Positions 10,522 to 44,875 of a DNA stretch of 64,000 nt are shown here, in pieces; the first letter of the stretch is position 1; every line of letters begins with the position of its first letter. The DNA is from a virus. A program made the translations under genes and the position numbers. The notes beneath the pieces were generated by a model. The model was not told where the DNA came from. It saw only the letters and a program-made list of their open reading frames with translations, and made no database searches. Where the stretch lies: positions 32,001 to 96,000 of IMG/VR virus record IMGVR_UViG_3300034152_001291; one strand, written 5' to 3'.

Positions 10522-10790
10522 CGCTCGGCGCGGCGGGCGCCGGGCTGGGGATCGGCGGGGGGCTTGCCTCCCATCTCAGGAAGTACCGGGCTCAGAAGAA
10601 GGAGTGGCTCGCAGGACGGGCCAGTCCTCCCATCCACCCCAAGAGCGTCAAGGTCTGGGATTACCTCAGGCGTCCTTCCATGATCACGCCGAGCCTGGCC
10701 CGTCGCATCATGGGCGGGGCCGCCGCCGGGGCCGGGACCGCTCTCGCCTTGAATGAGATCCTCAAGCGTCTAAAGAAGCGCAAGAAATGA
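10338..10790 (+). CDS. GF-x-E-E-I-x-K-I-A leader protein with glycine-zipper hydrophobic segments
   Basis: MGHQSSFAFRGFAEEIQKIADW...GALTLGAAGAGLGIGGGL...IMGGAAAGAGTALAL; stop overlaps the RNAP start. Confidence 0.7.
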   Translation: MGHQSSFAFRGFAEEIQKIADWREEVLGDGVRSDAQEVLPEEGGAQEKIARKKKKEEDGALTLGAAGAGLGIGGGLASHLRKYRAQKKEWLAGRASPPIHPKSVKVWDYLRRPSMITPSLARRIMGGAAAGAGTALALNEILKRLKKRKK

Positions 10791-13700
10791 TCAACGCCGA
10801 CCAGCAGTTTCCGGAGATGATGAAGCGGGTGGAGAACGCGATCTCCCGCGCTTTTCCCATCGAGTCCAAGCGGCACGTCATGGACGTCCGGAACCTGCGT
10901 TGGAAGAACTTCGGGCCTTCGATCCGGGACAACATCCGGCTTCAGAAAGAGTTCAAGAACAAGGACAAGACCCTCTCCGCCGACCTGGTCGGGGACGTGA
11001 GGATCCGGTCGAGAGCGGGGAGGGTGGTCGACACCAAGCCCGGCATGGTGCTCGTCACCCTCCCTCACATTACCAACCGGGCCTCCTACATCGTCAACGG
11101 CCACGAGGTGCAGACGGTGAACCAGCTCCGGCTGCGCCCGGGCCCCTACTCGAGGTTCACCTCCGACGACAACACGGAGACCTTCATCAATGCGGCGGGC
11201 GGAGGTTATAAGATCATCTTCAACCGCCAGACGGGCGTGCTCCGCTTGAAGTCCGGCTCCTCATTCTTCTACCTCTACCCGATCCTGAAGAGCCTCGGCG
11301 TCACGGACGCGCAAATGAAGTCGGCGTGGGGTGGCGATATCTTCACCGCTAACAAGGCGCACGACAAGAGCGATCAGGTTACGCGCCTCTACCGGAACAT
11401 GCGTCCTTACGCCGAGATCCCGGAGGATCCGGAGGAGCTGTCCACCGCCGTCGACACCTTCTTTCGTTCGAAGCAGCTCGACCCGAAGATCTCCAAGATC
11501 ACGATGGGGAAGGAATACGATCGGATCTCTCCCGACCTTCTTCTCCGGTCCAGCGGGAAGGCGATCGACCTGGCCAAGGGCAGCGTGGAGATGGACGACA
11601 CCGAGTCGCTCGCTTTCAAGTCCATCCACAGCGTCGAGGATTTCATCCCCGAGAGAATCGAGAAGGCCATCCCGAGCGTGAAGCGCGCGATCCAGTTCAA
11701 GATGGACAGGGCCCCCAAGATCTCGAGCCTTCTCTCTCCCGCGTCCTTCTCCAATCCCGTGATCGATTGGTTCATCACGAGCGAGTTCACCCGCTACTCG
11801 GACCAGCAGAATCCCGTGGACATGGCGTCGACGAGCCAGCTAACGACCACCATGGGAGAGGGAGGAATTCGAAGCGCCCACGCCGTGACCGACCAGGTGC
11901 GCATGGTTCACCCCTCCCAGATGGGTTTCTTGGATCCCATTCACAGCCCGGAGGGTGGTCGGATCGGTGTGACGGGGCACCTCACGATCGGAGCGGAGAA
12001 GAAGGGCGACAGCCTCTACACCAAGGTCATCGACGCGAAGACCGGCCGCCAGGTCTCGAAGAGCGCTCAGGACCTCGAGAACGCGGTCATCGCCTTCAAT
12101 GACCAGTACGACCTGACTGGGGACCGGCCACGTCCCTTGAAGCCGAGGGTGGAGGTCCGGGCAAAGGGGAAAATTCAGATTGTTCCAGCGTCGCAGGTCG
12201 AGTACGTCTTCAGGGATCCCAGGTCGTTCTTCTCGGTCACGTCGAACGCGATTCCCTTCCTCCACAACAACAACCCCAACCGCGGGCAGATGGCGGACCG
12301 CCACATCGAGCAGACCGTCCCCCTGACCGATCCGGACAGTCCCGTGGTTCAATCCAAGTTTCAAGGCAAGGAGGGCTTCGACGACTTCTTCGGCCGGAAC
12401 GTGAGCATCCAGTCCCCGGTGGATGGGACGGTCACCCTGGTTCGGAACGACCGGCTCAAGATCCGGGGAGACGACGGAAAGATGTACCTGGCCTACCTTC
12501 ACTACCAGTACCCCCTGAACGGAGGTTCGTTCCTCACGGACAGGCCGACCGTGAAGGCGGGGGACCGCGTCAAGAAAGGGCAGGTCATCGCGGAGAACAA
12601 CTTCTCGAAGGGAGGGGCGCTGGCTCTCGGCAAGACGCTCAGGACAGCTTACGTTCCTTACAAGGGCTACAACTTCGAGGACGGGGTGGTCATCTCCCAG
12701 GCCGCCGCGAGGAAGCTGACTTCCGAGCACCAGTATCAGCTCAGGCTCGACATCGACAGGAACACCAGGGTGGGGCTCGACATCTTCCTCGCGCACTTCC
12801 CGGACGAGATCGTGAACATCGATCGGGCCAAGTACGATCGGGACGGGATAGTCAGGAAGGGAAGCCGGGTCACCAAGGATGAGATCCTGGTCCCGGCCGT
12901 GTCCCAGACCGAGGTCAGCGAAGAATTCGACTACGCCCGTCTTCACAAGTCGCTGAAGAAGCCGTGGCGCAACGCCTCCATCGTGTGGGAGAGCGACTTT
13001 CCGGGTGAGGTCGTGGACGTCGTGAAGACCTCGAAATTCATCAAGGTGTTTCTTCGAACGGAGGAAGCTGCGCAGGTGGGCGACAAGGTCTCCCAGCGAT
13101 CAGGCGGGAAGGGAATCATCGTCAACATACTCCCGGATAATGAGATGCTCCAAGGAGAGGACGGGAAGCCGGTGGATGTCCTCTTCAATCCCGGGGGCGT
13201 CACGGGGCGCGTGAATCCGGGACAGCTCTACGAAGCGAGCATGGGGAAGGTCTCGAGGAAGACCGGCGAGAAGTACCTGGTGGAGAACTTCTCTCCGGAG
13301 TCGTCTCTCGACCGCGTTCAGGCGGAGATGCGAAAAGCGGGCGTCAAGGATACCGAGACGCTCACGGATCCCGGCACGGGGAACAAGATCAACGATATTT
13401 TTACGGGCGACATTCACTTCCTGAAGCTCCAGCATCAGGTTCGGAACAAGTTCAAGGCGAGAGGCCTCGGCAGTTACACGACGGACGAGCAGCCGAGCAA
13501 GGTCGGGAAGGAGTCGGCACAGAACATCGGATCTGGGGAGCTCTACGCTCTTCTCGCCTCGGGAGCCATGCACTTCCTGAAAGACACGACGACACTGAAG
13601 TCGCAGTCGAATCCTGAATACTGGCGCGCCCTTCAGACCGGCCTCCCCACGCCGCCCCCGCAGCAGCCTTTCATTCTCGACAAGTTCGTCACGAGTCTGG

Positions 13701-16700
13701 AGGGGGCCGGCGTCAACCTGGCCCGCGAAGGATCGAAGGTGAAGGCCCTCCCCATGACGGACAAGGACGTGGAGTCCCGGTCCAGGGGAGAGATCAAGAA
13801 CTTCACCGTGGTCCGGGCGTCAGACTTGAAGCCGGAGGCCGGAGGGCTCTTCGACAAGGGGATCACGGGAGGCTACGACGGGGTCCACTGGGCCCATATC
13901 GATCTCGAGACCCCCATGCCGAGCCCGCTCATGGAGAAGGCCCTGATCGCGGTCGCGGGCCTGAAGCCCGCCGAGTACAAGTCGATCATGCGAGGCACGC
14001 TCTTCGTGACGAGGGACGGGCACTTGACGACGGACTCGAAGAAGGGGGCGCCGGCGGGAGAAGGCCTGAAGATTCTCCTCGATAAGGTCAATGTGGAGAG
14101 GGATCTCGAGGATACGATTTCCCAGATCCGGATCGCCCGGGGCAGCAGGCTGGACGACCTGAACAAGAAGCGTCGCTACCTCCAGGCCCTGAAATCGTCG
14201 AAGCTCACGCCCTCCGAGGCCTACATCACAAGCAAGGTCCCCGTGATCCCGCCCAAGTTCAGGCCGGTCTACCCCCTGCCGGACGGGTCTCTGAACGTGG
14301 CCGACCCTAATCACGGGTATCGTGAAGTCCTGATGATCAACAATCAGCTGAAGGCGCTGAGGAATCAGGGTGTCGACAACAGGAATCTCGCTTCCATGCG
14401 GGCGGATCTCTACGGGGCTCTCCAGGGGTTGACGGGCATGACGGAGCCTCTCACCAGGGCCAAGAACTTCAGGGGCTTCGTCTCGACCATCAAGGGGAGG
14501 TCGAACAAGAGAGGGCTGTTCCAGGGAAAGGTGGTGAAGAGGCCCCAGGACCTCTCCGGGCGCTCTACGGTGATCCCCGATCCGAATCTCGGAATCGACG
14601 AGGTGGGTCTTCCGGCCGACATGGCGCTGACCATCTACAAGCCGTTTTTGGTGCGCCGTCTCGTGGGCATGGGCTACAAGCCCACCGAGGCCATGGATCT
14701 CGTCGACAAGAAAGATCCGAAGGTTTTGGACATCCTGAAGGACGAGGCGGCGGAGCGCCCGGTCTGGATGAATCGCGCGCCGAGCCTTCACAAATTCAGC
14801 ATGCTTCCCTTCAGGCCGAGGATCGCTCCCGGCAAGGCGATCCAGGTCAATCCCCTCATCGTGAAGGGGTTCAACATGGACTTCAACGGGGATTCCTGCT
14901 CGCCCGATACCGTCGTTTACGTTCGGCGTGTCTCCGATAGAACATTATTCGTGGGGTCTTTCGATGAATTTGTGAAGAACGAGCTCTTGCCTGGAATCGA
15001 TGACGCCGGTTTGGAGGAGATAGCCGGGGGCGTCACTGGAATTCTTGAGTTCGCTGATTCAGCTTATGAGGTCCTGGGACTTTTCGAGGGGAAAATTGCG
15101 TGGCAGCCTTTGAACCAGATAACGATACACACATCTCACGGGCCATGCTTTGAAGTCTCGTTCAAATCCGGTGACACTTTGATCTGTTCCGAGCACCACA
15201 ATCTATTCGGGGTGGATCCAGATACCCTCGATCTTTTCACTTTCAAAACCGAAAAGCATGAGGAGTATCCCGACGTTGTCGTCCCTATCGTCTCATTGTG
15301 GGATTCCGAACCGGTCGGCAACGCAAGGATTCCGGCCCTGGACTCGGGCAGGCGGCTGGATACTGTCCCTGTCGATGACGATTTGGCCTGGTGGACGGGA
15401 GTCTATGTTGGGGAGGGAAGCCTGACCGGACGGAATGATATCGTATCCTGTTCGTCTTCCGATCCGGAGATGCTTGGCCAGATCAAGATCGCTATGGAAC
15501 GCATTGGGCCCGTGTGGGAAACAGATAACCAGGTGAGGATAACAAGTAAAGATCTCTTCAAGGCTTTTGAGAGTGCTTTCGGAAAGGGAAGCCAGAACAA
15601 GAAGTTTCCGGATTTCGTCTTCGAGATGCCTCCGGCGCTTCGGTTGCAGGCCGTTGTCGGTTTCCTCGACGCGGAAGCACAGGCCGCATTTGATATCAAC
15701 GGTCGTCCATTCTTGACGGTAGAATTGACGAGTCTCCAGGCTCTCCGGCAAGTATCCATGTTGATGAGAAGCGTAGGCATCCGGAGCTCCATAAGAGAAG
15801 GTCGACCGGAAAAAACCGGAAGGAAGAAGACCTGGATTCTTTACGTTGAGAAATCCGGATTCGGGCTTCTTCCAAACTTTCGATCAAAATCGAAAAAAGA
15901 ATGGCAGGCTAAAGTTCGAAACTTTTCTGAAATCTCCAGAAGTCGGATGGATATGGTTCCAATGTTCGATTCGGTCTTCTCGGCTCTCACGAAGAAAGGC
16001 CTGGAGAATAGGACAGAGGATAAAAAGACGCGGGCCGAACGCAGAGCGTGGGCGAAAGAGTATGCTTCCAGCCATGGAGTTCCTTTCGGGCCTGTATCGA
16101 AAAGCGATCTTGTCGGGCATTCTTTGATAACACGTCGAGCCGCGTTCAGAATTGCGGCCTGGTACGGTCCATTCGAGAAGGATTCTCTTCTCGACAAGTG
16201 GAGATCCCTGGTGGAGAACACTTCCGTATCGTACACGGAGATTTCTTGCCGAGAAATCGACCGGCTCCCGATCCTTTACGATTTCAGCGTTCCTCCGAAT
16301 GAAGCCTTTGTTGTCAACTCTGGAATCGTGACGCACAACACCGTCGGCATCCATGTCCCCGTCAGCGAGGAGGCCCGGCAGGAGGCTTTCCAGAAGCTTC
16401 CGTCCAAGCAGCTGCTCTCGGTCCGGGAGCAGTCGGCGGTCCACACTCCGTCGAAGGAATATGTCCTCGGTCTCTACCTCATGACGCATCCCAAAGGAAA
16501 GACTGTCACGGCGAAGTCTCGTACCGACATGATGGCCCAGTATCAGGCCAAGAAGATCAAGGTGAACACGCCCGTGAAGATAGGGTCGGATATCTGGACG
16601 CCGGGCCAGGCTCTGGTCGACGATGTCTTTCCCGTAGGGCTGAAGCCCGGCAACAGGGTGATGGACAAGAGGACGGTGGAGACCCTTCTCTTCGAGGTCG

Positions 16701-18247
16701 CCAGAAAGGAGCCCAACAAGGCCGGTGACGTCATCAGCAGGATCAAGGACCTCGGCGCTCATTTCGTGACCGAGATCGGCTACTCCTTCGGGCTCGAGGA
16801 CCTCAAGTTCGACTACAAGAAACGCGAGCAGATCCTGGATGAGGCCGAGAAGAAAACGCCCAAGATCGGTTTCGAGAAGGCCTACGGGCAGGCTCTTGAC
16901 AAGATGAACAGCGAGATTCGGAAGACGAAAGGGAATCGGGTCGTCGAAGGCAGCATCACTTCGGGAGCTTTCGGCAAGGCCGACATGGTCACGCAGATGA
17001 TTGCCACGCCCGTGGCGGTCCGGGACCACAAGAATGAGATCATCCCGGTCCCTATCAAACGATCGTTTGCGGAAGGGCACGGAATTTCGAGCTACTGGGC
17101 AACGGCGCCGGGGGCTCGCAAGGGTCTGATCGAGAAGGGCCTCGGCACGGCGGAGACGGGAGCGCTGAGCAAGCGCCTGATCAACACCACCGTCACGCAG
17201 ACAATCAGCATGAAGGACTGCGGCACGACCGAGGGAACTCTGATGCCGATCGAGTCCCGCGACGCGCTGGACCACTTCGTCGCCGACGGCCCGTTCAAGA
17301 AGGAGGCGATCACGTCCGAGCTCGTGACACAGATGAAGCGACGCGGCCTGAAGCAGGTGCTCGTTCGGTCTCCGCTGAAGTGCGAGGCTCCCCAGGGAGT
17401 CTGCGCGATGTGCTTCGGCCTGCTGGAAAACGGGAAGGTCCCGCCGATCGGCTACAACGTGGGCGTCCTTTCGGGCCAGGCCGTCTCGGAACCCATGACC
17501 CAGCTCACTCTGAGGGCCTTCCATACGGGCGGAGCAATGGCGCAGAAGGCGGTCGGCTTCGACCGGATCAAACAGATTTTCGAACTCCCGGAGAATCTCC
17601 CTGGACGCGCCCCGCTCGCTCAGACCACGGGCAAGGTCGAATCGATCGACCCGGCTCCCGGCGGGGGTTGGATCGTGGTCATCGGGGGTGTGGACCATTT
17701 CGTGCCTCAGGAGCGCGGGCTCGGGGTGAAGAGAGGCGACAGGGTCTTGGCGGGTCAGCAGATCTCCAAGACCGGGGTCATTCGCCCTCAGGAACTACTC
17801 GCAGCCACGAACGACATCGATAAGGTTCGTGGCCAGATGGTGAAGGATCTCAACAAGGAGTTCGGGACGGGTGGTGTCCATATTCAGCGAAAGCTCCTCG
17901 AGACCGTCGTGCGCCCGATGACTGATCGAGCTGAGGTGACGGACGCCGGCGACGGAGAAAAGAAGGGCTACTTCAAGGGGGACGTCGTCGCCATAAACAA
18001 GCTCGAGAAGACGAACAAGGAGATCCGTAAGGCCGGCGGGAAACCGATCGAATATCAGCCCACTCTTTTGTCCATCCGCGTCGCCCCGTATCATAGCGGC
18101 GACTTCATCGGGAAGCTGATGTTCGAGCGTCCTCACGAGACGATCTCGGCCGCCCCGAGGATCGGCGCCGAGGCGGATGTGGTGAAGGGACACCCGATCA
18201 CGCGCCACACGTTCGGTCGCTACTTTGGAGCTCGGAATAAGAAATGA
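10787..18247 (+). CDS. rpoBC: DNA-directed RNA polymerase beta-beta' fusion, intein-containing
   Basis: beta motifs (YIVNG..Q.R.PG, VHPSQMG..SPEG, GYNFED, GDK...KG, KLQHQV) then beta' motifs (PEAGGLFD, VIPPKFRP, DLSGRS, NRAPSLH, NMDFNGD, GARKG, CEAPQGVCAMC, EPMTQLTLRAFHTGG) in one frame. Confidence 0.95.
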   Translation: MINADQQFPEMMKRVENAISRAFPIESKRHVMDVRNLRWKNFGPSIRDNIRLQKEFKNKDKTLSADLVGDVRIRSRAGRVVDTKPGMVLVTLPHITNRASYIVNGHEVQTVNQLRLRPGPYSRFTSDDNTETFINAAGGGYKIIFNRQTGVLRLKSGSSFFYLYPILKSLGVTDAQMKSAWGGDIFTANKAHDKSDQVTRLYRNMRPYAEIPEDPEELSTAVDTFFRSKQLDPKISKITMGKEYDRISPDLLLRSSGKAIDLAKGSVEMDDTESLAFKSIHSVEDFIPERIEKAIPSVKRAIQFKMDRAPKISSLLSPASFSNPVIDWFITSEFTRYSDQQNPVDMASTSQLTTTMGEGGIRSAHAVTDQVRMVHPSQMGFLDPIHSPEGGRIGVTGHLTIGAEKKGDSLYTKVIDAKTGRQVSKSAQDLENAVIAFNDQYDLTGDRPRPLKPRVEVRAKGKIQIVPASQVEYVFRDPRSFFSVTSNAIPFLHNNNPNRGQMADRHIEQTVPLTDPDSPVVQSKFQGKEGFDDFFGRNVSIQSPVDGTVTLVRNDRLKIRGDDGKMYLAYLHYQYPLNGGSFLTDRPTVKAGDRVKKGQVIAENNFSKGGALALGKTLRTAYVPYKGYNFEDGVVISQAAARKLTSEHQYQLRLDIDRNTRVGLDIFLAHFPDEIVNIDRAKYDRDGIVRKGSRVTKDEILVPAVSQTEVSEEFDYARLHKSLKKPWRNASIVWESDFPGEVVDVVKTSKFIKVFLRTEEAAQVGDKVSQRSGGKGIIVNILPDNEMLQGEDGKPVDVLFNPGGVTGRVNPGQLYEASMGKVSRKTGEKYLVENFSPESSLDRVQAEMRKAGVKDTETLTDPGTGNKINDIFTGDIHFLKLQHQVRNKFKARGLGSYTTDEQPSKVGKESAQNIGSGELYALLASGAMHFLKDTTTLKSQSNPEYWRALQTGLPTPPPQQPFILDKFVTSLEGAGVNLAREGSKVKALPMTDKDVESRSRGEIKNFTVVRASDLKPEAGGLFDKGITGGYDGVHWAHIDLETPMPSPLMEKALIAVAGLKPAEYKSIMRGTLFVTRDGHLTTDSKKGAPAGEGLKILLDKVNVERDLEDTISQIRIARGSRLDDLNKKRRYLQALKSSKLTPSEAYITSKVPVIPPKFRPVYPLPDGSLNVADPNHGYREVLMINNQLKALRNQGVDNRNLASMRADLYGALQGLTGMTEPLTRAKNFRGFVSTIKGRSNKRGLFQGKVVKRPQDLSGRSTVIPDPNLGIDEVGLPADMALTIYKPFLVRRLVGMGYKPTEAMDLVDKKDPKVLDILKDEAAERPVWMNRAPSLHKFSMLPFRPRIAPGKAIQVNPLIVKGFNMDFNGDSCSPDTVVYVRRVSDRTLFVGSFDEFVKNELLPGIDDAGLEEIAGGVTGILEFADSAYEVLGLFEGKIAWQPLNQITIHTSHGPCFEVSFKSGDTLICSEHHNLFGVDPDTLDLFTFKTEKHEEYPDVVVPIVSLWDSEPVGNARIPALDSGRRLDTVPVDDDLAWWTGVYVGEGSLTGRNDIVSCSSSDPEMLGQIKIAMERIGPVWETDNQVRITSKDLFKAFESAFGKGSQNKKFPDFVFEMPPALRLQAVVGFLDAEAQAAFDINGRPFLTVELTSLQALRQVSMLMRSVGIRSSIREGRPEKTGRKKTWILYVEKSGFGLLPNFRSKSKKEWQAKVRNFSEISRSRMDMVPMFDSVFSALTKKGLENRTEDKKTRAERRAWAKEYASSHGVPFGPVSKSDLVGHSLITRRAAFRIAAWYGPFEKDSLLDKWRSLVENTSVSYTEISCREIDRLPILYDFSVPPNEAFVVNSGIVTHNTVGIHVPVSEEARQEAFQKLPSKQLLSVREQSAVHTPSKEYVLGLYLMTHPKGKTVTAKSRTDMMAQYQAKKIKVNTPVKIGSDIWTPGQALVDDVFPVGLKPGNRVMDKRTVETLLFEVARKEPNKAGDVISRIKDLGAHFVTEIGYSFGLEDLKFDYKKREQILDEAEKKTPKIGFEKAYGQALDKMNSEIRKTKGNRVVEGSITSGAFGKADMVTQMIATPVAVRDHKNEIIPVPIKRSFAEGHGISSYWATAPGARKGLIEKGLGTAETGALSKRLINTTVTQTISMKDCGTTEGTLMPIESRDALDHFVADGPFKKEAITSELVTQMKRRGLKQVLVRSPLKCEAPQGVCAMCFGLLENGKVPPIGYNVGVLSGQAVSEPMTQLTLRAFHTGGAMAQKAVGFDRIKQIFELPENLPGRAPLAQTTGKVESIDPAPGGGWIVVIGGVDHFVPQERGLGVKRGDRVLAGQQISKTGVIRPQELLAATNDIDKVRGQMVKDLNKEFGTGGVHIQRKLLETVVRPMTDRAEVTDAGDGEKKGYFKGDVVAINKLEKTNKEIRKAGGKPIEYQPTLLSIRVAPYHSGDFIGKLMFERPHETISAAPRIGAEADVVKGHPITRHTFGRYFGARNKK
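14894..16339 (+). mobile_element. intein (482 aa) with LAGLIDADG homing endonuclease in the RNAP catalytic loop
   Basis: Starts SCSPDTVV directly after DFNGD, ends VTHN followed by Thr; block B CSEHH; TGVYVGEGS and VGFLDAEA; lower GC. Confidence 0.92.
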
Positions 18248-19545
18248 TCTCTGTGGGAGAGGTTACGCAGCCCGTCCCCAGCAAGAGAGCCTACCTTGTC
18301 AGCTTCTACAACGGGACCGAGCAGCTCTGCCAGACGGGAAATTTCGGGATCGAGGTCACCTATGATGTAGGAGACCAGGTCGTCTGCGTGACCCCCACCT
18401 CGGGCGTGCGGCAGGGTCCCATCATCCTCTGCCGGATAAATCCGCCCGCCATCCCCAACAAAGACAAGGAGAACCTGGGCAAGAGCGTCTTGCAGCTCCT
18501 CGCCGAGGAGGAAGAGAATCTCATCGCAAACGCCGTTCAGGGGTACCAACCGGACGGCATCCCCGACTGGGGGCGGGTCGAGGACAGGAACCCCCTCTCG
18601 ATCGGTGATATCCAGACGAGGAGCCGGACGTCGGAGGCCTTCAGCCAGATCACACCGGACGGGTCCATCATCAACTTCGTGAACGAGCTCCTACACCTCG
18701 TCCTGGCTTCCAGGAAGAGCGCCGCGATCCTCCGGATGAAAGAGCTGTTCATGGATGTGATCCCGGGCTTCCGCCTGAACGTCGGCGAGGTCTCGGATCC
18801 CGAGATTCAGAAGCCGGACGCCCCCAAGAGGATCGAAGACAAGAAGGTGAGGCTGGAATCTTTCCTGGCTTCGGATCCGGAGGAGCCCAATACGCTGGAT
18901 TTCGGCGCGCTTCTGGGGGCCTTGAATCCGAATGACGACCCCAAGTTCGGGCAGAGTCAGGCCACTCGGGGAAAGAGGTTCAAGAGAGGAGGCAGGATCC
19001 GTCTCGGCGATCTCGGGGTTTTCGAGGTGGACCTGGACCAGAACGAGATCCGCTTCACCCTGAGCCGCAGCGATGCCCCCGGTCTTTACCAGATACGCCT
19101 GAACAAGGAGGAGGCTGTCTTCTCCTGGGGGAGCCAGTTCGTGTCGTTCAGAGACGAGGGCCTTCTGATCAAGGCCGACATGATCGGCCTCGCGGGCCCA
19201 TGGGGGATGTGGTCACCCGAGACCGTGGCCGGCTTCACACACGATGTTCAGCCGGACGAACAGACCTTCCAGCCGATCGCCGAGTGGAAGACTTCGGCGG
19301 GGGAGAGCGGCATCAAGTTCAGCCGGAGCGTATACTTCGGTAGTAAAGAGGAGCCGGCGATCCTGGAGGGATACATTGACACGTTCTTGAAGCCCCAGCT
19401 GGAACTGTTGGGCGCCCACACGCACAATGTGACGGCTGTCGGGGCCCCCACGGGGCCCATGCTGCCGCCGATAACGGTGCTGAACTCCTTGATCCAGGAA
19501 CCGACGGTTGACACGTACCTCAGCCTGGTGAAAATCGCTCTGTAG
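18244..19545 (+). CDS. baseplate central spike (gpV/gp5-like)
   Basis: N-terminal OB-fold-like region (YDVGDQVVC), beta repeats, C-terminal HTH..V...GAPTGP spike-apex motif. Confidence 0.65.
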   Translation: MISVGEVTQPVPSKRAYLVSFYNGTEQLCQTGNFGIEVTYDVGDQVVCVTPTSGVRQGPIILCRINPPAIPNKDKENLGKSVLQLLAEEEENLIANAVQGYQPDGIPDWGRVEDRNPLSIGDIQTRSRTSEAFSQITPDGSIINFVNELLHLVLASRKSAAILRMKELFMDVIPGFRLNVGEVSDPEIQKPDAPKRIEDKKVRLESFLASDPEEPNTLDFGALLGALNPNDDPKFGQSQATRGKRFKRGGRIRLGDLGVFEVDLDQNEIRFTLSRSDAPGLYQIRLNKEEAVFSWGSQFVSFRDEGLLIKADMIGLAGPWGMWSPETVAGFTHDVQPDEQTFQPIAEWKTSAGESGIKFSRSVYFGSKEEPAILEGYIDTFLKPQLELLGAHTHNVTAVGAPTGPMLPPITVLNSLIQEPTVDTYLSLVKIAL

Positions 19546-19555
19546 GAGGCATTCG

Positions 19556-21319
19556 ATGACGACGAGTATCGACGGAAAGCCCCTCTTCATCACGAAAGAC
19601 GCCATCGCCGGCGACTTCGAGAAGACGGCGATGTACCGTTTGAGCCGCGACCCCTCCCAGTGGGAGAGGGAGATTCTGACCTTCCTGCACGAGCAGCAGC
19701 CCTTCCTCCAGGACTACGACGTGCGCGTTCACATGAACAAGACCGATCCTGATACTGGGGCCGGGGTGGGCCAAGTCGTCATCGAGGACAAGGTCGCCGT
19801 CCCCGTCATCATCGAGAACTTCAAGCTCTACCCTCTCGACATCTTCTGGCACGAGGACAAGCTGAAGCCCATGACCAAGCCGTCGATCATGTCGGCGCTC
19901 CAGACGATCTCCATCGGCAAGTCGGTGGAGCCGGGGCGGGGCGAGATCAGCGACATGAGCATCTACAACCTGACCCGTGCCCCCTTCTCGGGGAAGTACA
20001 GCTTCGCCGAGGGGCTCACGTACTCGCTCGACGATCTCCAGAGGATGGTCGAGACCCTCGGGGACGAGGGCTTCGAGTACGCGATGCGGTCCAACTTGAT
20101 GTTCAAGGAGGCCTTCGTCTCCTACGTCACGGGGGCGCAGGAAGGTCCCATCGAGAAGACCGCCCAGGACGAGAAGGGAGACGTCAGGGAGGTGGATTTC
20201 ACGCCCTACTACCCCGTCCAGTCAGCGGGCCTCCACGCGGTGGTCCGCGGCGGCCTCGACAAGGCGGCGGCCTTCGTCTTCGACCAGGTCATGGACTGGG
20301 ACGGAAATCTCGAGGAAGGTCGGAAGATGGCTCTCTGCCTGGACGACGGGTCGTACGCGATCCAGGAGTCCTTCGCCGGGCTCCCCATCGAGTCCGATGG
20401 GCTCGAGAAGAACGCGGAGGCCATGGATCCCTCCCGTCCGAGAAAGGGGGATGTGGGATTTTTCTGGCGCGTCAAGGAGGGCAGCGCCGTGGCTATGCGC
20501 CCGGCGGCGGTTCTCTATTCGGGAAGCGGGGAGGACTACGTGCCCTACGTCAAGGTGGCTGCATTGGGGTTCGATGGGAAGGAGAGAAGCATCTACCAGG
20601 GAGAGGCCTACCGGGACGCACTCGTCGTGGGTGAGGGGGTTTTCCTCTCCTCCGACTGGAACTGGACCAAGCTGGGGCGGGCCCGCACGCTCTCCGACCC
20701 TGCGGAGGCCAACCGGTTCGAGTGGCCGGATGGGGTTGCGAGCATTCACCGCCAGGGCTCCGGTCTCCGGGTCGAGGGTCTCGACGGATTTCCCAAGTAC
20801 GCCGAGAGCGAGAAGGTGGTGAAGGGAAAGCTCGAGAAGATCATGGCCCCGGAGATTCTCGGCACACTCCTCAAGAAGGCCAAGGGCGGCGGGAGCGTCT
20901 ACTTCGTCTTCACCAAGAGAGGGGTGGTCAAGGAGGCGTCCGAGCGTAAGCGCGACGCCCTGGTCAAGGTGGCCGGCACCCGGCTTGGACCCGTGAACCT
21001 GGTCCAAGCGGCAGCTCACCTGAAGCCGGCCCGCTATGACTTCTTCAAGCTGGCGGTCGACTTCGACGAGGAGAAGACCAAGAAGACCATCGACTCGGTC
21101 CTGAGCCTGAACTTCATCAATGATGACAACCTCTACAAATTCGTGGAGAATACATCGGATCTGGAGGAGGCAGTCGATGCCCTGGCGAAACTCCTGATCG
21201 GGGCGCGCCTCGGTCTCGACATCGAGGACTCTCCCATTCGGACCGCCCTCTTCTCGATGGACGAGGTGGTCAGGCAGCTGAAGCACTTGGGGTCCCAGGT
21301 GTATGGCGAAGAAAGCTAA
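19556..21319 (+). CDS. K-x-A-rich putative head/inner-core protein
   Basis: 587 aa; FEKTAM, IEKTAQ, LDKAAA, LEKNAE, VKEASE, LVKVAG, FFKLAV. Confidence 0.7.
   Translation: MTTSIDGKPLFITKDAIAGDFEKTAMYRLSRDPSQWEREILTFLHEQQPFLQDYDVRVHMNKTDPDTGAGVGQVVIEDKVAVPVIIENFKLYPLDIFWHEDKLKPMTKPSIMSALQTISIGKSVEPGRGEISDMSIYNLTRAPFSGKYSFAEGLTYSLDDLQRMVETLGDEGFEYAMRSNLMFKEAFVSYVTGAQEGPIEKTAQDEKGDVREVDFTPYYPVQSAGLHAVVRGGLDKAAAFVFDQVMDWDGNLEEGRKMALCLDDGSYAIQESFAGLPIESDGLEKNAEAMDPSRPRKGDVGFFWRVKEGSAVAMRPAAVLYSGSGEDYVPYVKVAALGFDGKERSIYQGEAYRDALVVGEGVFLSSDWNWTKLGRARTLSDPAEANRFEWPDGVASIHRQGSGLRVEGLDGFPKYAESEKVVKGKLEKIMAPEILGTLLKKAKGGGSVYFVFTKRGVVKEASERKRDALVKVAGTRLGPVNLVQAAAHLKPARYDFFKLAVDFDEEKTKKTIDSVLSLNFINDDNLYKFVENTSDLEEAVDALAKLLIGARLGLDIEDSPIRTALFSMDEVVRQLKHLGSQVYGEES
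20985..21007. promoter_or_regulatory. 23-bp palindromic motif, copy 2 (TTGGACCCG-tgaac-CTGGTCCAA), intragenic
   Basis: Matches the dyad at 238, 46251 and 53059; about 300 bp upstream of the gene preceding terminase. Confidence 0.6.
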
Positions 21320-34285: not shown

Positions 34286-35464
34286 ATGGACATGACTCCC
34301 GAACGGTTCAACGCCCTCTTCGGCGAGGCCGTGCGCAGGGGCGGAGAGCTCCTGGAGAAGGTCGCCGATGCCGGCGATCTCTACGTGCAGAAGAAGCTGC
34401 GCGAGAACGCGTTCTGCCGGCGCATCGTCCCTCCGAAAACGGTAACGGAGCGCGAGTGTCAGCGCTCCCTGGTCCACGATTCGCTGGAATACGTGGACGA
34501 CATCGAGCCCGATTCCGTCGCCATGCACATCAACTGGCGGGGGGAGCCGGAGAAGTCGTGGATCCGCGGAGACCGCTACGCGATCCGCTTCCACACCATC
34601 TCCTCCGACATCTTCCAGAAGACGGAGTCGGAGCTCCGGGCATACCGCATGCCCATCACCAAGATCATCGAGCAGAACACCATCCGGGACATCCAGGAGC
34701 AGGAGGACGTGGCCTTCATGAGCCATGTCTACGCGGCCCTGTTCCTCGCCACGCGCGCCCGCTACAACAAGCTGGTCGCCCGCGGCGTCCTCTCCACGTC
34801 CAAGAACTTCACCGACGAGCTGGAGCTCGCCAACTTCCTGTTCACGCAGAACAAGGCGTACCAGGGGGTGTGGGCGGCGATCCCGAACAACGCCCTCAAC
34901 CGGGCGAAGGCCTTCCACTCGAACATCCTCTTCTCGGACCAGACCGAGTTCTCCCGCATCGTGCTGCGGGACCTCACCCGTGTCGGGTCCGCGCGGGAGA
35001 TGGACTCGAAGGTCTTCCTGATGCACAAGTACGACCACGACGCGACCATCGCGTGGTCGCTGAACGAGGCGGGTCTCGAGATCACCTCGGAGATCGTCCG
35101 GGACGGGTTCAAGTACACGACGATCGCGGGGTTCACCTACGTGACCACGATCCGCGACAACCCCGACCTCGTCCAGCCCGGGCAGATCTTCTCCTTCCCG
35201 AGCCCGCAGTTCCTGGGGAAGATCCTGATCCTGGACAACACCAAGTTCTACATCAACCGGCGCGGGCGCTTCATCGAGATGGAGGCCTGGGAAGAGATCG
35301 GGGCCGGCTTCGGCAACATCCTGGGCATCGGCTGCATCCTCCTGAAGGGTGCTGAGCTGACCATCCCGGTGCAGTTCCAGGACCCCGACGACTCGCTGAC
35401 GGGCAAGGGGAGTCTCCGGATCATCAACGACAACACCCTCTCGTCCATCCCGTCGCCGGTGTAG
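34286..35464 (+). CDS. major capsid protein
   Basis: 392 aa, extreme codon bias, AAGGAG RBS, position after protease/scaffold, terminator downstream; LREnaFCRRIVP, IQEQED, AWEEIGAGFGN consistent with the HK97 fold. Confidence 0.85.
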   Translation: MDMTPERFNALFGEAVRRGGELLEKVADAGDLYVQKKLRENAFCRRIVPPKTVTERECQRSLVHDSLEYVDDIEPDSVAMHINWRGEPEKSWIRGDRYAIRFHTISSDIFQKTESELRAYRMPITKIIEQNTIRDIQEQEDVAFMSHVYAALFLATRARYNKLVARGVLSTSKNFTDELELANFLFTQNKAYQGVWAAIPNNALNRAKAFHSNILFSDQTEFSRIVLRDLTRVGSAREMDSKVFLMHKYDHDATIAWSLNEAGLEITSEIVRDGFKYTTIAGFTYVTTIRDNPDLVQPGQIFSFPSPQFLGKILILDNTKFYINRRGRFIEMEAWEEIGAGFGNILGIGCILLKGAELTIPVQFQDPDDSLTGKGSLRIINDNTLSSIPSPV

Positions 35465-36964: not shown

Positions 36965-36969
36965 TCGTC

Positions 36970-37369: not shown

Positions 37370-37504
37370 TCGGTCAGAAGGATGCGAGGAGGATCGAGCC
37401 CTGCGGGACATACTGCTCCTCGGCGTGTGGCGCTGTAAGCGTGAGTGCAGTCGCCCAGGCCGGTAGCGAGTGAGAGCCGGAAACCCCTCACGCGCGGTGA
37501 CCGA
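37370..37504 (+). ncRNA. candidate structured RNA / 5' leader
   Basis: Nested stems TCGGTCA/TGACCGA, CGAGGAG/CTCCTCG, GCGTGAG/CTCACGC in an unusually long intergenic gap. Confidence 0.4.
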
Positions 37505-38742: not shown

Positions 38743-38751
38743 AGGGAGACG

Positions 38752-39189: not shown

Positions 39190-39199
39190 GGAGGAGAAG

Positions 39200-39481
39200 A
39201 TGCCTTACGATCAGTTCGACGAAGCGGAACAGGCTTTCGGAGAGGATCTCGCCGGCTTGCTCGGCGTGTCCGACCTCTCCAAGCTAGCGGAGTTCTCGAC
39301 CCCTGTCGGGACCCCGCAGGAGAAGGAGATCCCCAAGACGGCATCGGGACCGAGGTCAGTCGCCGGGATGTCGCTCCGGGAAGTCTTCGACAACCCCTAC
39401 TTCCGTCAGGGCCTGGCGGAGGAGTGGGACAGTCTCCGTTCCATCTGGGAACCGGTTTTGCTGAACCTCCTGGGAAGGTAG
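39200..39481 (+). CDS. small K-x-A protein
   Basis: AGGAGG RBS; AFGEDL...LSKLAE, PKTASG. Confidence 0.65.
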   Translation: MPYDQFDEAEQAFGEDLAGLLGVSDLSKLAEFSTPVGTPQEKEIPKTASGPRSVAGMSLREVFDNPYFRQGLAEEWDSLRSIWEPVLLNLLGR

Positions 39482-39484
39482 CGG

Positions 39485-40147: not shown

Positions 40148-40148
40148 G

Positions 40149-43253: not shown

Positions 43254-43268
43254 GAAAAGGAGCAGAAC

Positions 43269-44015: not shown

Positions 44016-44023
44016 AAACTCGC

Positions 44024-44875
44024 CTATTCCTCTTCATCCTGCGGACCCCCTGGTTTTTCCGGGGGGTTCGCTCTCATTTCCGGGGGGATATCAGATTCCT
44101 TGAGAAGGATGAAGAGTTTTCTCAAAGCAGTCGATTCGATCTGGCGGATCCTCTCCCTCGATTTCTTGTAGACCAGGGATATGTCCGCCAGTGTCTGTTC
44201 CTGGCAGCCGATTCCGTAGCGCCGGCGGATGACGTCCTCTTCAAGCGTGGTGAGCCTCTTTAGAACACGCCCTATGCTCTCTCTTACTTCCTTTCCGACA
44301 GACTGGCTGATGGGGCTCTCCTGGGTATCGGCCGGGATCTCGCCGGAAAGATTGTGGGCAATCATGGCTCGGTCTTCCTTGTACTTCTGGAAGACCCGCG
44401 TTTTGTAGGAGGACCACCCGAGGTACTCGGCCACTTCCCTGTCCGTCGGGGATCGTCCGAGCATTTCCGTCAGGTCTCTCTTGCCCGTCTTGTAGGCGTG
44501 AGCCATGTTGGTGAGGGACGCCACGGTTTCCTTCTCGAAGAACTTCAGTCCCTTCCGTATCCCGGACTCTATCCAGCAGACCGCGTAGGTAGAGAACTTG
44601 AAACCGAGCTCGACCTTGAACCGGTCTATCGCCGTGAACAGGCCTCGGATCCCGTCGCTGATGAGAGTCATGGTGCGGGGGTCGTTCGGGGAGCAGAAGC
44701 GAAGGACTCTCGAGATGACCAACCGGATGTTGGCTTTGATGAAGTGCTCTTTTGCTTCTTGGTCTCCCTTCTTGATTCGGAGGAGGAGGCGCTTCTCCTC
44801 TGCGGGAGTTAGAACTTCGACCCCCTCGAACATCCTGCAAAAGTCTCCGAAGTCGGAGTCTTCGTACTTCTTCAT
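44024..44875 (-). CDS. sigma70-family RNA polymerase sigma factor
   Basis: Region 1.2 (LTPAEE), 2 (NIRLV...GLFTAIDRF...GFKFSTYA), 3 (LGRSPTDREVA), 4 (TLADI...SRERIRQIE..ALRKL). Confidence 0.93.
   Translation of the reverse strand: MKKYEDSDFGDFCRMFEGVEVLTPAEEKRLLLRIKKGDQEAKEHFIKANIRLVISRVLRFCSPNDPRTMTLISDGIRGLFTAIDRFKVELGFKFSTYAVCWIESGIRKGLKFFEKETVASLTNMAHAYKTGKRDLTEMLGRSPTDREVAEYLGWSSYKTRVFQKYKEDRAMIAHNLSGEIPADTQESPISQSVGKEVRESIGRVLKRLTTLEEDVIRRRYGIGCQEQTLADISLVYKKSRERIRQIESTALRKLFILLKESDIPPEMRANPPEKPGGPQDEEE

What the first reader, a model, noticed from the sequence alone, without database searches (positions are those of the whole stretch)
10787..44875. Phage-encoded single-chain beta-beta' RNA polymerase plus its own sigma70: a possible two-protein holoenzyme
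Seen: beta and beta' are fused (2004 aa after intein removal, much shorter than bacterial beta plus beta'). The beta' N-terminal Zn-binding domain is missing (PEAGGLFD runs almost directly to WAHIDL). The flap-tip region and clamp coiled coil, which bind sigma, appear retained. A sigma with regions 1.2-4 lies at 44024-44875, and no alpha or omega gene is visible in the window. The RNAP gene sits in the virion operon, translationally coupled to a leader-bearing cargo gene and the spike gene. Established: cellular-like multisubunit RNAPs are known from some metagenomic phages, so the enzyme class is not new. Inference: an alpha-independent, possibly virion-packaged enzyme working with a phage sigma.
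Basis: partly seen in the sequence, partly recalled or inferred. Interest (0 to 1): 0.82.

Follow-up and report, generated by a model that had tools for sequence, protein, structure and literature searches.

The report
Single-chain phage RNA polymerase with sigmas
An uncultured phage encodes both large subunits of a bacterial-type RNA polymerase as one protein among its particle genes, plus two sigma factors and no alpha or omega, so it probably carries its own transcription enzyme into the host.

Summary
ORF 10787-18247 encodes one 2486-aa beta-beta' chain. A 482-aa LAGLIDADG intein follows the catalytic loop, leaving 2004 aa after removal. The beta' zinc ribbon is absent and the clamp coiled coil is kept. 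The fusion is not an assembly artefact: at least 543 IMG/VR loci encode relatives, and all 80 inspected give one continuous match.

No alpha or omega was found in this record or in 26 large relatives. The gene lies between portal and terminase, a layout conserved across the family. In the cultured relative Salmonella phage Arash, the polymerase and one sigma (gp10) were found in virions by mass spectrometry.

The interpretation needs correcting. The sigma at 44024-44875 matches Arash gp196, which is absent from that virion table, and only a subset of relatives have it. The family-wide sigma is a second, cysteine-free gene outside the window. A two-sigma cascade is my inference.

Binding, independence from host alpha, and packaging are untested here. 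The catalytic triad reads D-N-D. In the family, Asn variants occur only beside an intein (11 of 37 against 0 of 80), which I cannot explain.

This scan has followed up the same enzyme family on other genomes with similar conclusions.

The parts
2060..3937 (+). portal gene, the upstream anchor of the conserved portal - RNAP - terminase cluster
   Evidence: tblastn gives 27% identity, E 8e-63, to Arash gp204, annotated portal. No Pfam or PHROG hit. A homologue lies upstream on the same strand in 62 of 80 IMG/VR loci.
10338..10790 (+). small ORF with an N-terminal F-x-x-E-I-x-K-I-A motif; its stop overlaps the RNAP start
Evidence: The strict motif has 5 hits in the genome, all on the + strand in the structural block, and 4 sit at ORF N-termini. 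ATGA overlap at 10787-10790. No family hit.
10787..18247 (+). single-chain beta-beta' RNA polymerase gene (2486 aa precursor, 2004 aa without the intein)
12917..12964 (+). flap-tip-like stretch (residues 711-726), shorter than and divergent from bacteria
   Evidence: Aligned to the flap-tip region of chain 8i23_C. The AlphaFold model has pLDDT below 50 at residues 711-724. Coordinates.
13697..13768 (+). beta / beta' joint (residues 971-994), with almost no linker
   Evidence: The end of bacterial beta aligns up to about residue 978. Beta' residue 26 aligns to residue 1001.
13832..13906 (+). site where the beta' zinc ribbon is missing (residues 1016-1040)
   Evidence: The same short G-G-x-x-G-x-x-W-x-H loop is conserved in all 26 aligned family members.
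14306..14431 (+). clamp coiled coil (residues 1174-1215), the site that binds sigma region 2 in bacteria
   Evidence: Sequence alignment. Helices at model residues 574-594 and 599-617.
14873..14893 (+). catalytic loop N-M-D-F-N-G-D, with the middle Asp encoded as Asn (AAC at 14885-14887)
   Evidence: All 25 other sequences in alignment A3 have Asp here.
14894..16339 (+). intein with LAGLIDADG homing endonuclease (Ser1370 to His-Asn1851, then Thr+1)
   Evidence: Pfam LAGLIDADG_3 at 1.9e-7; Intein_splicing at 0.001, below cut-off. Intein-free relatives such as P0003 (86% identical) close the gap exactly. Choosing Ser rather than Cys1371 as residue 1 rests on the recalled block A pattern.
17219..17419 (+). 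second zinc site of beta' (Cys2145, 2199, 2206, 2209), the only cysteines of the mature enzyme
   Evidence: Invariant in alignments A1 and A3. Cys count.
18244..19545 (+). 433-aa ORF of unknown function; its start overlaps the RNAP stop
   Evidence: A homologue was found in only 2 of 80 related loci.
19556..21319 (+). 587-aa conserved neighbour, probably a virion protein
   Evidence: A homologue lies downstream of the RNAP in 64 of 80 loci. Weak pairwise match, E 2e-4, to Arash gp218, a protein detected in virions. The Atlas search gave nothing usable.
22379..24184 (+). terminase large subunit
   Evidence: phrog_675 at 8.5e-57. PF05876 at 5.7e-12.
34286..35464 (+). major capsid protein
   Evidence: tblastn E 1e-22 to Arash gp226, annotated major capsid protein. 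No Pfam or PHROG hit.
44024..44875 (-). sigma-70 family factor, RpoD-like and lacking region 1.1; last gene of the minus-strand replication block; probably the second, non-virion sigma
   Evidence: The partner sigma that matches Arash gp10 lies outside the window at G000:C1:121121-121819 (+), equal to L088:1432-2130.

Best explanation
The window belongs to a large, mostly uncultured family of tailed phages of roughly 180-200 kb where complete. These phages run their own bacterial-type transcription system.

Shown here:
- Beta and beta' are one chain with almost no linker.
- The beta' zinc ribbon is deleted.
- The clamp coiled coil and the second zinc site are kept.
- No alpha or omega gene exists in this record or its relatives.
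- The gene sits between portal and terminase.
- The genome has two sigma-70 family genes.

Inferred from a cultured relative and from sequence properties: the polymerase is made late with the particle proteins and spliced free of its intein. It is then packed into the capsid with the family-wide, cysteine-free sigma encoded outside the window, which matches Arash gp10, and is delivered with the DNA.

Inferred, weaker: that holoenzyme starts the leftward early and replication units, which carry a phage-specific motif (GTCATAAGA). The RpoD-like sigma at 44024-44875 is the last gene of one such unit. It then directs the same core to the rightward particle genes, including the polymerase gene itself.

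That no further subunit is needed is a hypothesis only.
For: Family and fusion:
- 263 homologues at E<=1e-3 were found, and the best 120 were listed. 117 of these 120 are about 1890-3020 aa; 3 are shorter, 1448-1549 aa.
- At least 543 IMG/VR loci encode relatives. Each of the 80 kept is one continuous match.
- In a beta' tree, 86 family rows separate from 76 bacterial rows on one branch with SH-aLRT 100.

No alpha or omega:
- 0 of 1 in the own record and 0 of 26 relatives for each. All 14 control genomes were positive.

Particle-gene context:
- Portal lies upstream in 62 of 80 loci, the 587-aa neighbour downstream in 64 of 80, and terminase downstream in 47 of 80. Many loci are cut by contig ends.

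Virion evidence in a relative, the Arash virion mass spectrometry (PMC10585845, passages seen):
- gp206: 128 unique peptides, 3516 spectra, the most detected protein.
- gp216: 40 unique peptides, 1210 spectra.
- Sigma gp10: 24 unique peptides, 467 spectra, 100% coverage.
- gp196 is not in the table.

Orthology:
- The outside sigma and gp10 match at E 5e-15.
- gp196 hits only the window sigma, at 1.5e-7.

Co-occurrence in both directions:
- The gp10-type sigma is in 21 of 26 relatives, in 8 of 8 records at least 90% complete, and in both isolates.
- Of 14 IMG/VR contigs found through that sigma alone, 12 carry the fused polymerase. The 2 without it are 47% and 56% complete.

Cysteine depletion:
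- The mature polymerase has 4 Cys, all zinc ligands, against 23.5 expected (Poisson 9e-7).
- The outside sigma has 0 Cys. Its large neighbours have 0 and 1.
- The window sigma has 4 Cys, and replication proteins have 13-18.

Promoter-like motif:
- GTCATAAG occurs 9 times, all on the minus strand ahead of leftward units, against 2.4 expected on both strands.
- One relative has 8 forward copies and 0 reverse, with 0 in the control.

Contrast with known jumbo phages:
- Those with their own multisubunit polymerase have no sigma, and those with sigma have no polymerase (PMC7824862, passage seen).
Against: - No direct evidence exists for this phage: there are no virion, expression or binding data.
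- The Arash preparation yielded 116 proteins, including ribonucleotide reductases and ligases. Its authors themselves allow carry-over of abundant proteins.
- Arash is only about 30% identical, and its beta' is split.
- Co-occurrence of the polymerase and the gp10-type sigma is also what any two core genes of one phage lineage would show.
- The catalytic loop of this copy reads D-N-D, which by recalled work on E. coli should cripple catalysis.
- The flap tip, the docking site of sigma region 4, is divergent and modelled with low confidence.
- A functional alpha substitute without sequence similarity cannot be excluded, and the record is only 63% complete.
- The motif is not conserved in most relatives.
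- The rightward TATACT motif has only 5 copies.
Confidence: 0.55

Rival explanations
1. The polymerase is a non-virion enzyme. It is encoded among particle genes and made late, but it works only inside the infected cell, for example for late transcription. The Arash signal would then be carry-over.
For: The Arash virion list holds 116 proteins, including evident non-structural enzymes, and its authors name carry-over as a possibility. No packaging signal was found on the polymerase itself: the leader-like motif is absent from it.
Against: gp206 is the most detected protein of the Arash preparation. One sigma is present while the other is absent, which argues for selectivity. An enzyme made only from late operons could not start the infection, and no second polymerase gene is in the record: tblastn of P0001 against the genome finds only itself. 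The Cys depletion is shared with other likely particle proteins.
Confidence: 0.15
2. The phage sigmas redirect the host core polymerase, as T4 gp55 or SPO1 gp28/gp34 do (recalled). The phage polymerase would use another specificity factor, or none.
For: The window sigma is RpoD-like: the next relatives after its own phage clade are bacterial primary sigmas at 31-36% identity. Its region 2.2 core-binding helix would fit any bacterial-type clamp coiled coil. Jumbo phages with sigma but no polymerase exist.
Against: The gp10-type sigma and the fused polymerase co-occur in both directions. gp10 is in Arash virions together with the polymerase. The polymerase keeps the coiled coil that sigma region 2 binds.
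Confidence: 0.12
3. The enzyme is not a two-protein holoenzyme. It needs host alpha or an unrecognised phage subunit, as phiKZ and AR9 non-virion polymerases need a fifth phage-specific subunit (recalled).
For: Bacterial cores, including artificially fused beta-beta' (recalled), assemble on an alpha dimer. Many conserved neighbours have no known function, such as the 587-aa protein found in 64 of 80 loci. In Arash, gp217 and gp218 show spectral counts similar to gp216.
Against: No alpha-like sequence is in 27 records. The family is reported from Salmonella and Vibrio hosts, and phage-like contigs were binned with cyanobacterial, planctomycete and Bacteroidales genomes. A conserved interface with host alpha across such hosts is less likely.
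Confidence: 0.25
4. This particular copy is catalytically weak or dead because the middle metal-binding Asp is Asn. The selfish intein carried that change in through co-conversion of flanking sequence.
For: Asn variants occur only next to an intein: 11 of 37 intein-bearing against 0 of 80 intein-free proteins, Fisher p 1e-6. Each variant goes with one intein type. D-N-D goes with Ser1...His-Asn (5 of 5). D-D-N goes with Cys1...[Tyr/Trp]-Asp (6 of 6).
Against: The reading frame is intact over 2486 codons. The same D-N-D state is kept in four other proteins only 37-39% identical to this one, which argues for selection. It is the only polymerase gene in the record.
Confidence: 0.15

Closest known systems
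RNA polymerase of Salmonella phage Arash (gp206 + gp216, sigmas gp10 and gp196; OQ632216.1; PMC10585845) and of Vibrio phages D69/D181/D148
   Same: Same enzyme clade. Portal lies just upstream. There are two sigma genes and no alpha or omega. The polymerase and gp10 were detected in virions.
   Different: Only about 29-30% identical. Beta' is split after the catalytic loop, at about residue 1933 of this protein, into a 1525-aa and a 606-aa chain. There is no intein. The paper annotates them as ordinary beta and beta' subunits and does not discuss composition.
mReC, the multisubunit-RNAP-encoding Caudovirales of Weinheimer and Aylward 2020 (PMC7481178)
   Same: Metagenomic tailed phages that encode beta and beta' homologues branching apart from cellular ones, with the polymerase genes among particle genes.
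   Different: The main text does not mention fusion, sigma, alpha, virions or inteins. Their filter required NADxDGD, which this protein fails. Their capsid and terminase families (PF07068, PF03237) are not the ones found here. Whether their 97 contigs include this family is in supplements I could not open.
phiKZ and AR9 virion and non-virion multisubunit polymerases
   Same: Phage-encoded two-barrel polymerases without alpha or omega. One set is packaged and injected for early transcription (and recalled).
   Different: Their beta and beta' are split into 4-5 chains. [quoted passage not shown] There are two paralogous enzymes rather than one core with two sigmas.
crAss-like phage gp66 and N4 virion polymerase (recalled, not checked here)
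   Same: Single-chain, virion-packaged polymerases ejected into the host to start transcription.
   Different: gp66 is too divergent to match cellular beta or beta' models (stated in PMC7481178). N4 vRNAP is T7-like. Neither uses sigma.
Natural rpoB-rpoC fusion of Helicobacter and Wolbachia, and engineered E. coli beta-beta' fusions (recalled)
   Same: Beta joined head to tail with beta' in one functional chain.
   Different: Those enzymes are full-size, keep the zinc ribbon, and still assemble with alpha2 and omega.

Membership tests
Bacterial-type multisubunit RNA polymerase core (beta + beta') | beta catalytic barrel region (Pfam Rpb2_6) and Rpb2_3 | tested here: met
   3.1e-52 and 8.8e-12. 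The model matches bacterial beta chains, TM by query 0.41-0.43.
Bacterial-type multisubunit RNA polymerase core (beta + beta') | beta' domains Rpb1_2 and Rpb1_5 | tested here: met
   1.3e-20 and 8.9e-24. The model matches bacterial beta' chains, TM by query 0.44-0.47.
Bacterial-type multisubunit RNA polymerase core (beta + beta') | catalytic loop NADFDGD with three Asp | tested here: not met
   It reads NMDFNGD, with AAC at 14885-14887. All 80 intein-free relatives have three Asp.
Bacterial-type multisubunit RNA polymerase core (beta + beta') | N-terminal zinc ribbon of beta' (four Cys) | tested here: not met
   About 64 residues are missing relative to E. coli. There is no Cys in residues 1-1369.
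Bacterial-type multisubunit RNA polymerase core (beta + beta') | second zinc site of beta' (four Cys) | tested here: met
   Cys2145, 2199, 2206 and 2209 are invariant in 12 and 26 aligned members.
Bacterial-type multisubunit RNA polymerase core (beta + beta') | alpha dimer and omega subunits encoded with the core | tested here: not met
   0 hits in the own record and 0 of 26 relatives for each. Use of host alpha is not testable here.
Sigma-70 family (window gene 44024-44875) | regions 2 and 4 above Pfam cut-offs | tested here: met
   r2 at 29.9 bits (cut-off 24) and r4 at 44.7 bits (cut-off 24.1).
Sigma-70 family (window gene 44024-44875) | region 3 and region 1.2 | tested here: inconclusive
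   r3 at 21.9 bits is below the cut-off of 25.3. PF00140 (region 1.2) gave no hit.
Arash-like fused-polymerase phage family | polymerase in the phage clade of the beta' tree | tested here: met
   86 family rows against 76 bacterial rows on one branch, SH-aLRT 100, 283 columns, quick search.
Arash-like fused-polymerase phage family | portal - polymerase - terminase gene order and a gp10-type sigma | tested here: met
   In this record 6.8 kb of extra genes lie between portal and polymerase.
mReC as defined in PMC7481178 | NADxDGD motif; capsid PF07068; terminase PF03237 | tested here: not met
   The motif fails. The capsid has no Pfam hit, and the terminase is PF05876. The COG HMM scores were not run.
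Class 1 intein with homing endonuclease | N-terminal Ser/Cys, C-terminal His-Asn, +1 Thr/Ser/Cys, LAGLIDADG domain | tested here: met
   Ser1370, His1850-Asn1851 and Thr1852. LAGLIDADG_3 at 31.7 bits against a cut-off of 22.5. Splicing itself is not testable here.
Virion-packaged, injected RNA polymerases (functional class) | protein present in purified virions and active early without host polymerase | not testable with these tools
   The only evidence is by analogy to the Arash proteome, together with gene context and Cys depletion.

The most novel reading that the evidence does not exclude
A complete sigma-dependent transcription machine made of just two polypeptides. One is a single-chain beta-beta' without alpha, omega or zinc ribbon. 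The other is a small dedicated sigma. The machine travels inside the phage particle, starts infection independently of the host polymerase, and is re-aimed at late genes by a second phage sigma. In some members, including this one, it works with an Asn in the universal Asp triad that is tied to an intein.
Probability: 0.3. Interest if true: 0.8.

Novelty: new variant of a known kind. Interest (0 to 1): 0.6.

Why it matters
Bacterial polymerase cores are thought to need the alpha dimer as an assembly platform. The known alpha-less phage enzymes (phiKZ, AR9) do not use sigma-70 family factors.

A compact single chain that still uses ordinary sigma factors would be the smallest sigma-dependent polymerase known. 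It would be a tractable model for how core and sigma work without alpha, omega and the zinc ribbon, and a candidate orthogonal transcription tool.

It would also add a third way for phages to bring their own polymerase into the cell. The family is large, with at least 543 IMG/VR loci, yet I found no description of its enzyme composition in the papers I could search.

The strict link between inteins and Asn replacements in the catalytic triad is an unexplained rule. It can be tested directly by mass spectrometry and activity assays.

Tried and rejected
Complex prediction. I sent beta' residues 1040-1369 (alignment A3) with the window sigma (alignment A2). The result was 'no answer', score 0.00 in two runs, and controls were not run. 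This is evidence neither way.

Sequencing runs. For 13600-15100 none was listed and no RNA holder was listed. Read support for the fusion and for the Asn codon could therefore not be checked.

Related loci. The search for related loci with the single protein found no relative. It worked with alignment A1.

Neighbour annotation. PHROGs and Pfam on 20 neighbouring ORFs named only the terminase and a second intein. A further Pfam call on 10 proteins named the terminase, the outside sigma, DNA polymerase A and a RecA-like protein. It left the capsid protein and three tail or baseplate-like proteins without a family.

ESM Atlas. The search for the 587-aa neighbour gave nothing usable.

Arash neighbours. 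No homologue of Arash gp217 was found in this genome at E<=0.01. Pairwise BLAST of the ORF after the polymerase against gp217 to gp220 gave only chance-level matches. A weak SNF2-like match exists elsewhere, at G000:86483-86887 in the minus-strand block, 24.8 bits. Helicase_C gave none.

24187, 31526 and 46218 do not belong to the 9-copy motif. The consensus scan of 43000-52000 found 2 sigma-70-like sites against 1.4 expected and did not list 46218.

Rejected readings:
- Assembly artefact or bacterial contamination. The family-wide fusion, the phage gene context and the separate clade argue against both.
- A Cys1371 start for the intein, because four relatives with Ser-Ala or Ser-Ile keep only the Ser.
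- Conversion of Asn to Asp by the splicing chemistry. I could think of no route; this is reasoning only.

Literature. Searches returned no paper describing a fused beta-beta' phage polymerase with sigma or its virion packaging, beyond the Arash proteome and the mReC survey. The search for intein + RNA polymerase + NADFDGD found 0 papers. Supplements were closed, so the mReC contig lists and the full Arash tables could not be checked. PMC12619734 turned out to be irrelevant.

Papers, and what I saw of each:
- PMC10585845, PMC7481178, PMC7824862 and PMC12619734: passages through 'find' plus the search listings, not the whole text.
- Recalled only, not seen here: the E. coli Asp-triad mutants, the flap-tip hydrophobic patch, extein effects on inteins, fused E. 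coli beta-beta', the Helicobacter fusion, crAss gp66, N4 vRNAP, and T4 and SPO1 sigmas.

I added it and resent the same report.

Full report
WHAT IS THERE

The window is bases 32001-96000 of a 124,703-bp linear IMG/VR virus record that CheckV rates 63% complete.

ORF 10787-18247 (+) encodes 2486 residues. Pfam places beta domains in the front half: Rpb2_3 at 8.8e-12 and Rpb2_6 at 3.1e-52. Beta' domains lie behind: Rpb1_2 at 1.3e-20 and Rpb1_5 at 8.9e-24. Rpb1_1 and Rpb1_3 are below their cut-offs. A LAGLIDADG_3 domain (1.9e-7) lies in between. PHROGs gives two long families of unknown function, at 1.2e-99 and 6.4e-77.

Bacterial beta aligns up to about residue 978, three residues short of the end of the best-matching chain. 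Beta' residue 26 aligns to residue 1001. The two subunits are therefore joined with almost no linker.

THE INTEIN

Alignment with intein-free relatives shows an insert from Ser1370 to Asn1851 (14894-16339). One of these relatives is P0003, 86% identical and 1998 aa. The insert is followed by Thr1852 and leaves 2004 residues.

I take Ser, not Cys1371, as the first intein residue for two reasons. The four relatives with the same intein type keep the Ser but have Cys, Ala or Ile next. The recalled block A pattern also fits that register.

Zinc ribbon: absent.
- After G-L-F-D the chain runs through a short glycine-rich loop to W-A-H-I-D-L.
- About 64 residues are missing relative to E. coli.
- Residues 1-1369 contain no cysteine.
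- The same loop is conserved in all 26 aligned family members.

Second zinc site: kept. Its four cysteines are invariant.

Clamp coiled coil: kept.
- It aligns to bacterial beta'.
- In an AlphaFold model of residues 600-1369 it forms two helices of 21 and 19 residues. The model used a 38-row alignment and has mean pLDDT 86.4 and pTM 0.77.
- The model matches bacterial beta and beta' chains, each over about half its length.

Flap tip: less clear.
- Residues 711-726 align to the bacterial flap-tip helix.
- The stretch is shorter and divergent.
- It is modelled with pLDDT below 50.

THE FUSION IS A FAMILY TRAIT

- A word-index search limited to proteins of 1367-4351 aa found 263 homologues at E<=1e-3. 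Of the best 120 listed, 117 are about 1890-3020 aa and 3 are shorter, 1448-1549 aa.
Each of the 80 loci kept is one continuous match, cut only where contigs end.
- A scan of one genome per prokaryote species found three more phage-like contigs of 163-204 kb binned with a cyanobacterium, a planctomycete and a Bacteroidales genome. Otherwise it found bacterial rpoB-rpoC at 25-30% identity.
- I built a tree of a 276-residue beta' segment. There were 162 rows: one duplicate Arash locus and one row below 85% coverage were dropped. It used 283 columns, IQ-TREE quick search and LG+G4. The 86 family rows and the 76 bacterial rows sit on either side of one branch with SH-aLRT 100. Arash and Vibrio phage D69 join as long branches next to the bacterial side, so their exact place is unsure.

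NO ALPHA, NO OMEGA

- PF01000, PF01193 and PF01192 give nothing in this record.
- PF01000 and PF01192 give nothing in 26 relatives of at least 100 kb. These are 24 IMG/VR records, 8 of them at least 90% complete and 3 with terminal repeats, plus Arash and D69.
- All 14 control genomes scored in each search.
- tblastn of the polymerase against its own genome finds only itself, so there is no second polymerase.

GENE CONTEXT

The genome falls into blocks:
- A leftward block of small genes (G000 222-19864).
- A 56-kb rightward block (19970-76015) holding portal, polymerase, terminase, capsid and tail-like genes.
- A leftward block (76024-110853) with the window sigma as its last gene, a family A DNA polymerase with an intein, and a RecA-like protein.
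- A rightward block (110953-122133) with large proteins and the second sigma.

Portal and capsid are named only through Arash annotation. The terminase is named by phrog_675 at 8.5e-57.

In the 80 related loci, which have flanks of at most 10 kb:
- a portal homologue lies upstream in 62;
- a homologue of the 587-aa protein at 19556-21319 lies downstream in 64;
- a terminase lies downstream in 47.

The polymerase start overlaps the stop of a small ORF, and its stop overlaps the next start, both as ATGA.

The small upstream ORF begins with F-x-x-E-I-x-K-I-A. That motif occurs five times in the genome, always in the rightward block, and four times at an ORF N-terminus. The polymerase itself lacks it. 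Its role as a capsid-targeting leader is the first readers' idea and is untested.

The ORF after the polymerase has no recognisable family, so 'spike' is unsupported.

EVIDENCE FOR PACKAGING

The nearest cultured relatives are Vibrio phages D69, D181 and D148 (28.9% identity over 74% of the protein) and Salmonella phage Arash.

In Arash the portal gene, a small ORF and gp206 follow each other. gp206 covers beta plus the front of beta' up to about residue 1933 of this protein. gp216 covers the rest. There is no intein.

Values from the Arash paper's virion mass spectrometry:

| Protein | Unique peptides | Spectra | Note |
|---|---|---|---|
| gp206 | 128 | 3516 | most detected protein |
| gp216 | 40 | 1210 | |
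| sigma gp10 | 24 | 467 | 100% coverage |
| portal gp204 | 32 | 877 | |
| major capsid protein gp226 | 30 | 1333 | |
| sigma gp196 | - | - | not in the table |

The list has 116 proteins, including clear non-structural enzymes, and the authors allow carry-over. This is suggestive, not proof.

An independent hint comes from the sequence:
- The mature polymerase has only four cysteines, exactly the zinc ligands, where 23.5 are expected from the genome's own proteins (Poisson 9e-7).
- Other likely particle proteins of about 1000 residues have none (26067-29270, 40149-43253, G000:113816-116875).
- Terminase has 16. The replication proteins checked (DNA polymerase A, the large protein that weakly matches Arash ribonucleotide reductase, and the SNF2-like protein) have 13-18.

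TWO SIGMAS, AND WHICH IS THE PARTNER

The window sigma (283 aa) has regions 2 and 4 above cut-off. Its closest relatives form a metagenomic clade at 38-75% identity. After them come bacterial primary sigmas at 31-36%. It keeps the F-S-T-Y-A-x-x-W melting motif.

A second sigma lies outside the window at G000:121121-121819. It has 232 aa, with regions 2 and 3 above cut-off.

Reciprocal searches pair the outside sigma with Arash gp10 (E 5e-15) and the window sigma with Arash gp196. gp196 hits only the window sigma, at 1.5e-7.

Distribution of the gp10-type sigma across the 26 relatives:
- It is found in 21.
- It is found in all 8 records at least 90% complete, and in both isolates.
- Identity falls from 49% to 24%.
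- For 16 records with both values, its identity correlates with polymerase identity (Spearman 0.65, p 0.007). Any two core genes would show such a correlation.

Distribution of the window type:
- It occurs as a separate second locus in 10 of 26 records, and in 5 of the 8 near-complete ones.
- The other five matches fall on the gp10-type gene itself.

In the reverse direction, 14 IMG/VR contigs were found through the gp10-type sigma alone, and 12 of them carry the fused polymerase. The 2 without it are 47% and 56% complete.

The outside sigma has no cysteine and the window sigma has four.

Published overviews of jumbo phages state that phages with their own multisubunit polymerase lack sigma, and those with sigma lack a polymerase. 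This family combines both.

PROMOTER-LIKE MOTIFS

GTCATAAG occurs nine times, always on the minus strand and ahead of leftward units, usually 17-20 bases after an A run. Shuffles give 2.4 on both strands. None lies inside the window.

One copy, at G000:110865, heads the 35-kb leftward block that ends with the window sigma.

One relative has 8 forward and 0 reverse copies of GTCATAAGA with 0 in the control. The other relatives are near background.

A weaker rightward motif, [GT]TATACT[TA], has 5 copies, all on the plus strand, and three lie in gaps ahead of rightward genes.

From this I infer, with low confidence, a cascade. The delivered core with the gp10-type sigma reads the leftward units. 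The RpoD-like window sigma, made last, turns the core to the rightward particle genes.

The consensus scan did not list 46218.

THE ASN IN THE CATALYTIC LOOP

The loop reads N-M-D-F-N-G-D (AAC at 14885-14887).

I classified the 120 family proteins. Eight rows that my pattern wrongly flagged as having an insert were corrected by hand from their lengths:

| Class | Number of proteins |
|---|---|
| No insert at this site, three Asp | 80 |
| Insert at this site, three Asp | 26 |
| Insert at this site, D-D-N | 6 |
| Insert at this site, D-N-D | 5 |
| Could not be classified | 3 |

- Asn therefore occurs only with an intein: 11 of 37 against 0 of 80, Fisher p 1e-6.
- Each variant goes with one intein type. 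D-N-D goes with Ser1...His-Asn. D-D-N goes with Cys1...[Tyr/Trp]-Asp.
- The other D-N-D proteins are only 37-39% identical to this one, so the state is either selected or carried along with the intein.
- I have no mechanism. Asn-Gly is prone to deamidation (recalled), but that is a poor way to make an enzyme.
- This leaves open whether this copy is fully active.

WHAT FAILED

- The complex prediction of the clamp region with the window sigma gave no answer.
- No sequencing run was listed.
- Most neighbours have no family.

COMPARISON WITH WHAT IS KNOWN

The enzyme class is known from the mReC survey and from the Arash genome and proteome. The papers I could search do not describe any of the following:
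- the single chain;
- the lack of alpha, omega and zinc ribbon;
- the universal small sigma;
- the inteins in the catalytic loop;
- the Asn rule.

Supplements were closed.

The mReC filter required NADxDGD and found other capsid and terminase families. I therefore cannot say whether this family is part of mReC.

Earlier follow-ups in this scan reached similar conclusions on other genomes.

VERDICT

The main correction is that the likely packaged partner is the other sigma.

Noticed in passing
window 14873-14893, and family proteins P0016, P0028, P0069, P0070, P0075, P0080, P0094, P0095, P0098, P0111: Asn replaces one Asp of the catalytic triad only in proteins that carry an intein right after the loop (11 of 37 against 0 of 80). 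D-N-D goes with a Ser1...His-Asn intein and D-D-N with a Cys1...[Tyr/Trp]-Asp intein. At least three intein types target this one site.
   Followed up: partly
G000:C1:121121-121819 (+), outside the window (window coordinate 89121-89819); L088:1432-2130: Second sigma factor (232 aa, no Cys), the reciprocal best match of virion-detected Arash gp10. It is present in 21 of 26 relatives. It sits after Cys-poor proteins of 1019 and 960 aa.
   Followed up: yes
G000 positions 1235, 4169, 6569, 18609, 19910, 31285, 31628, 110865, 123473 (none inside the window): GTCATAAG occurs nine times, all on the minus strand ahead of leftward gene blocks, often 17-20 bases after an A run. It is a candidate phage-specific promoter. 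One relative (G001) has 8 forward and 0 reverse copies.
   Followed up: partly
window 29278-31890 (+): The 870-aa homologue of Arash structural protein gp222 carries its own intein with a LAGLIDADG domain (1.8e-10).
   Followed up: no
window 57817-61200 (-): Family A DNA polymerase (1.7e-66) interrupted by a LAGLIDADG intein. This makes three inteins in the window.
   Followed up: no
window 9073, 9303, 10371, 25542 and G000:24786 (strict); G000:21235 and 22011 (loose): The N-terminal motif F-x-x-E-[LMIV]-x-K-[ILV]-A recurs on small, otherwise unrelated proteins of the rightward structural block. It may be a targeting or processing signal.
   Followed up: partly
window 26067-29270, 40149-43253, 267-1436; G000:113816-116875: Several large proteins of the structural blocks have no cysteine at all, while terminase has 16 and the replication proteins checked have 13-18.
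   Followed up: partly
window 10780-10790 and 18237-18247: Both gene junctions around the polymerase use the same AAGAAATGATC sequence, with stop and start overlapping.
   Followed up: no
L135, L136, L137 (genome contigs): Phage contigs of 163-204 kb with the fused polymerase are binned in published MAGs of a Leptolyngbyaceae cyanobacterium, a Thermoguttaceae planctomycete and a Bacteroidales bacterium. This may hint at hosts, or it may be mis-binning.
   Followed up: no
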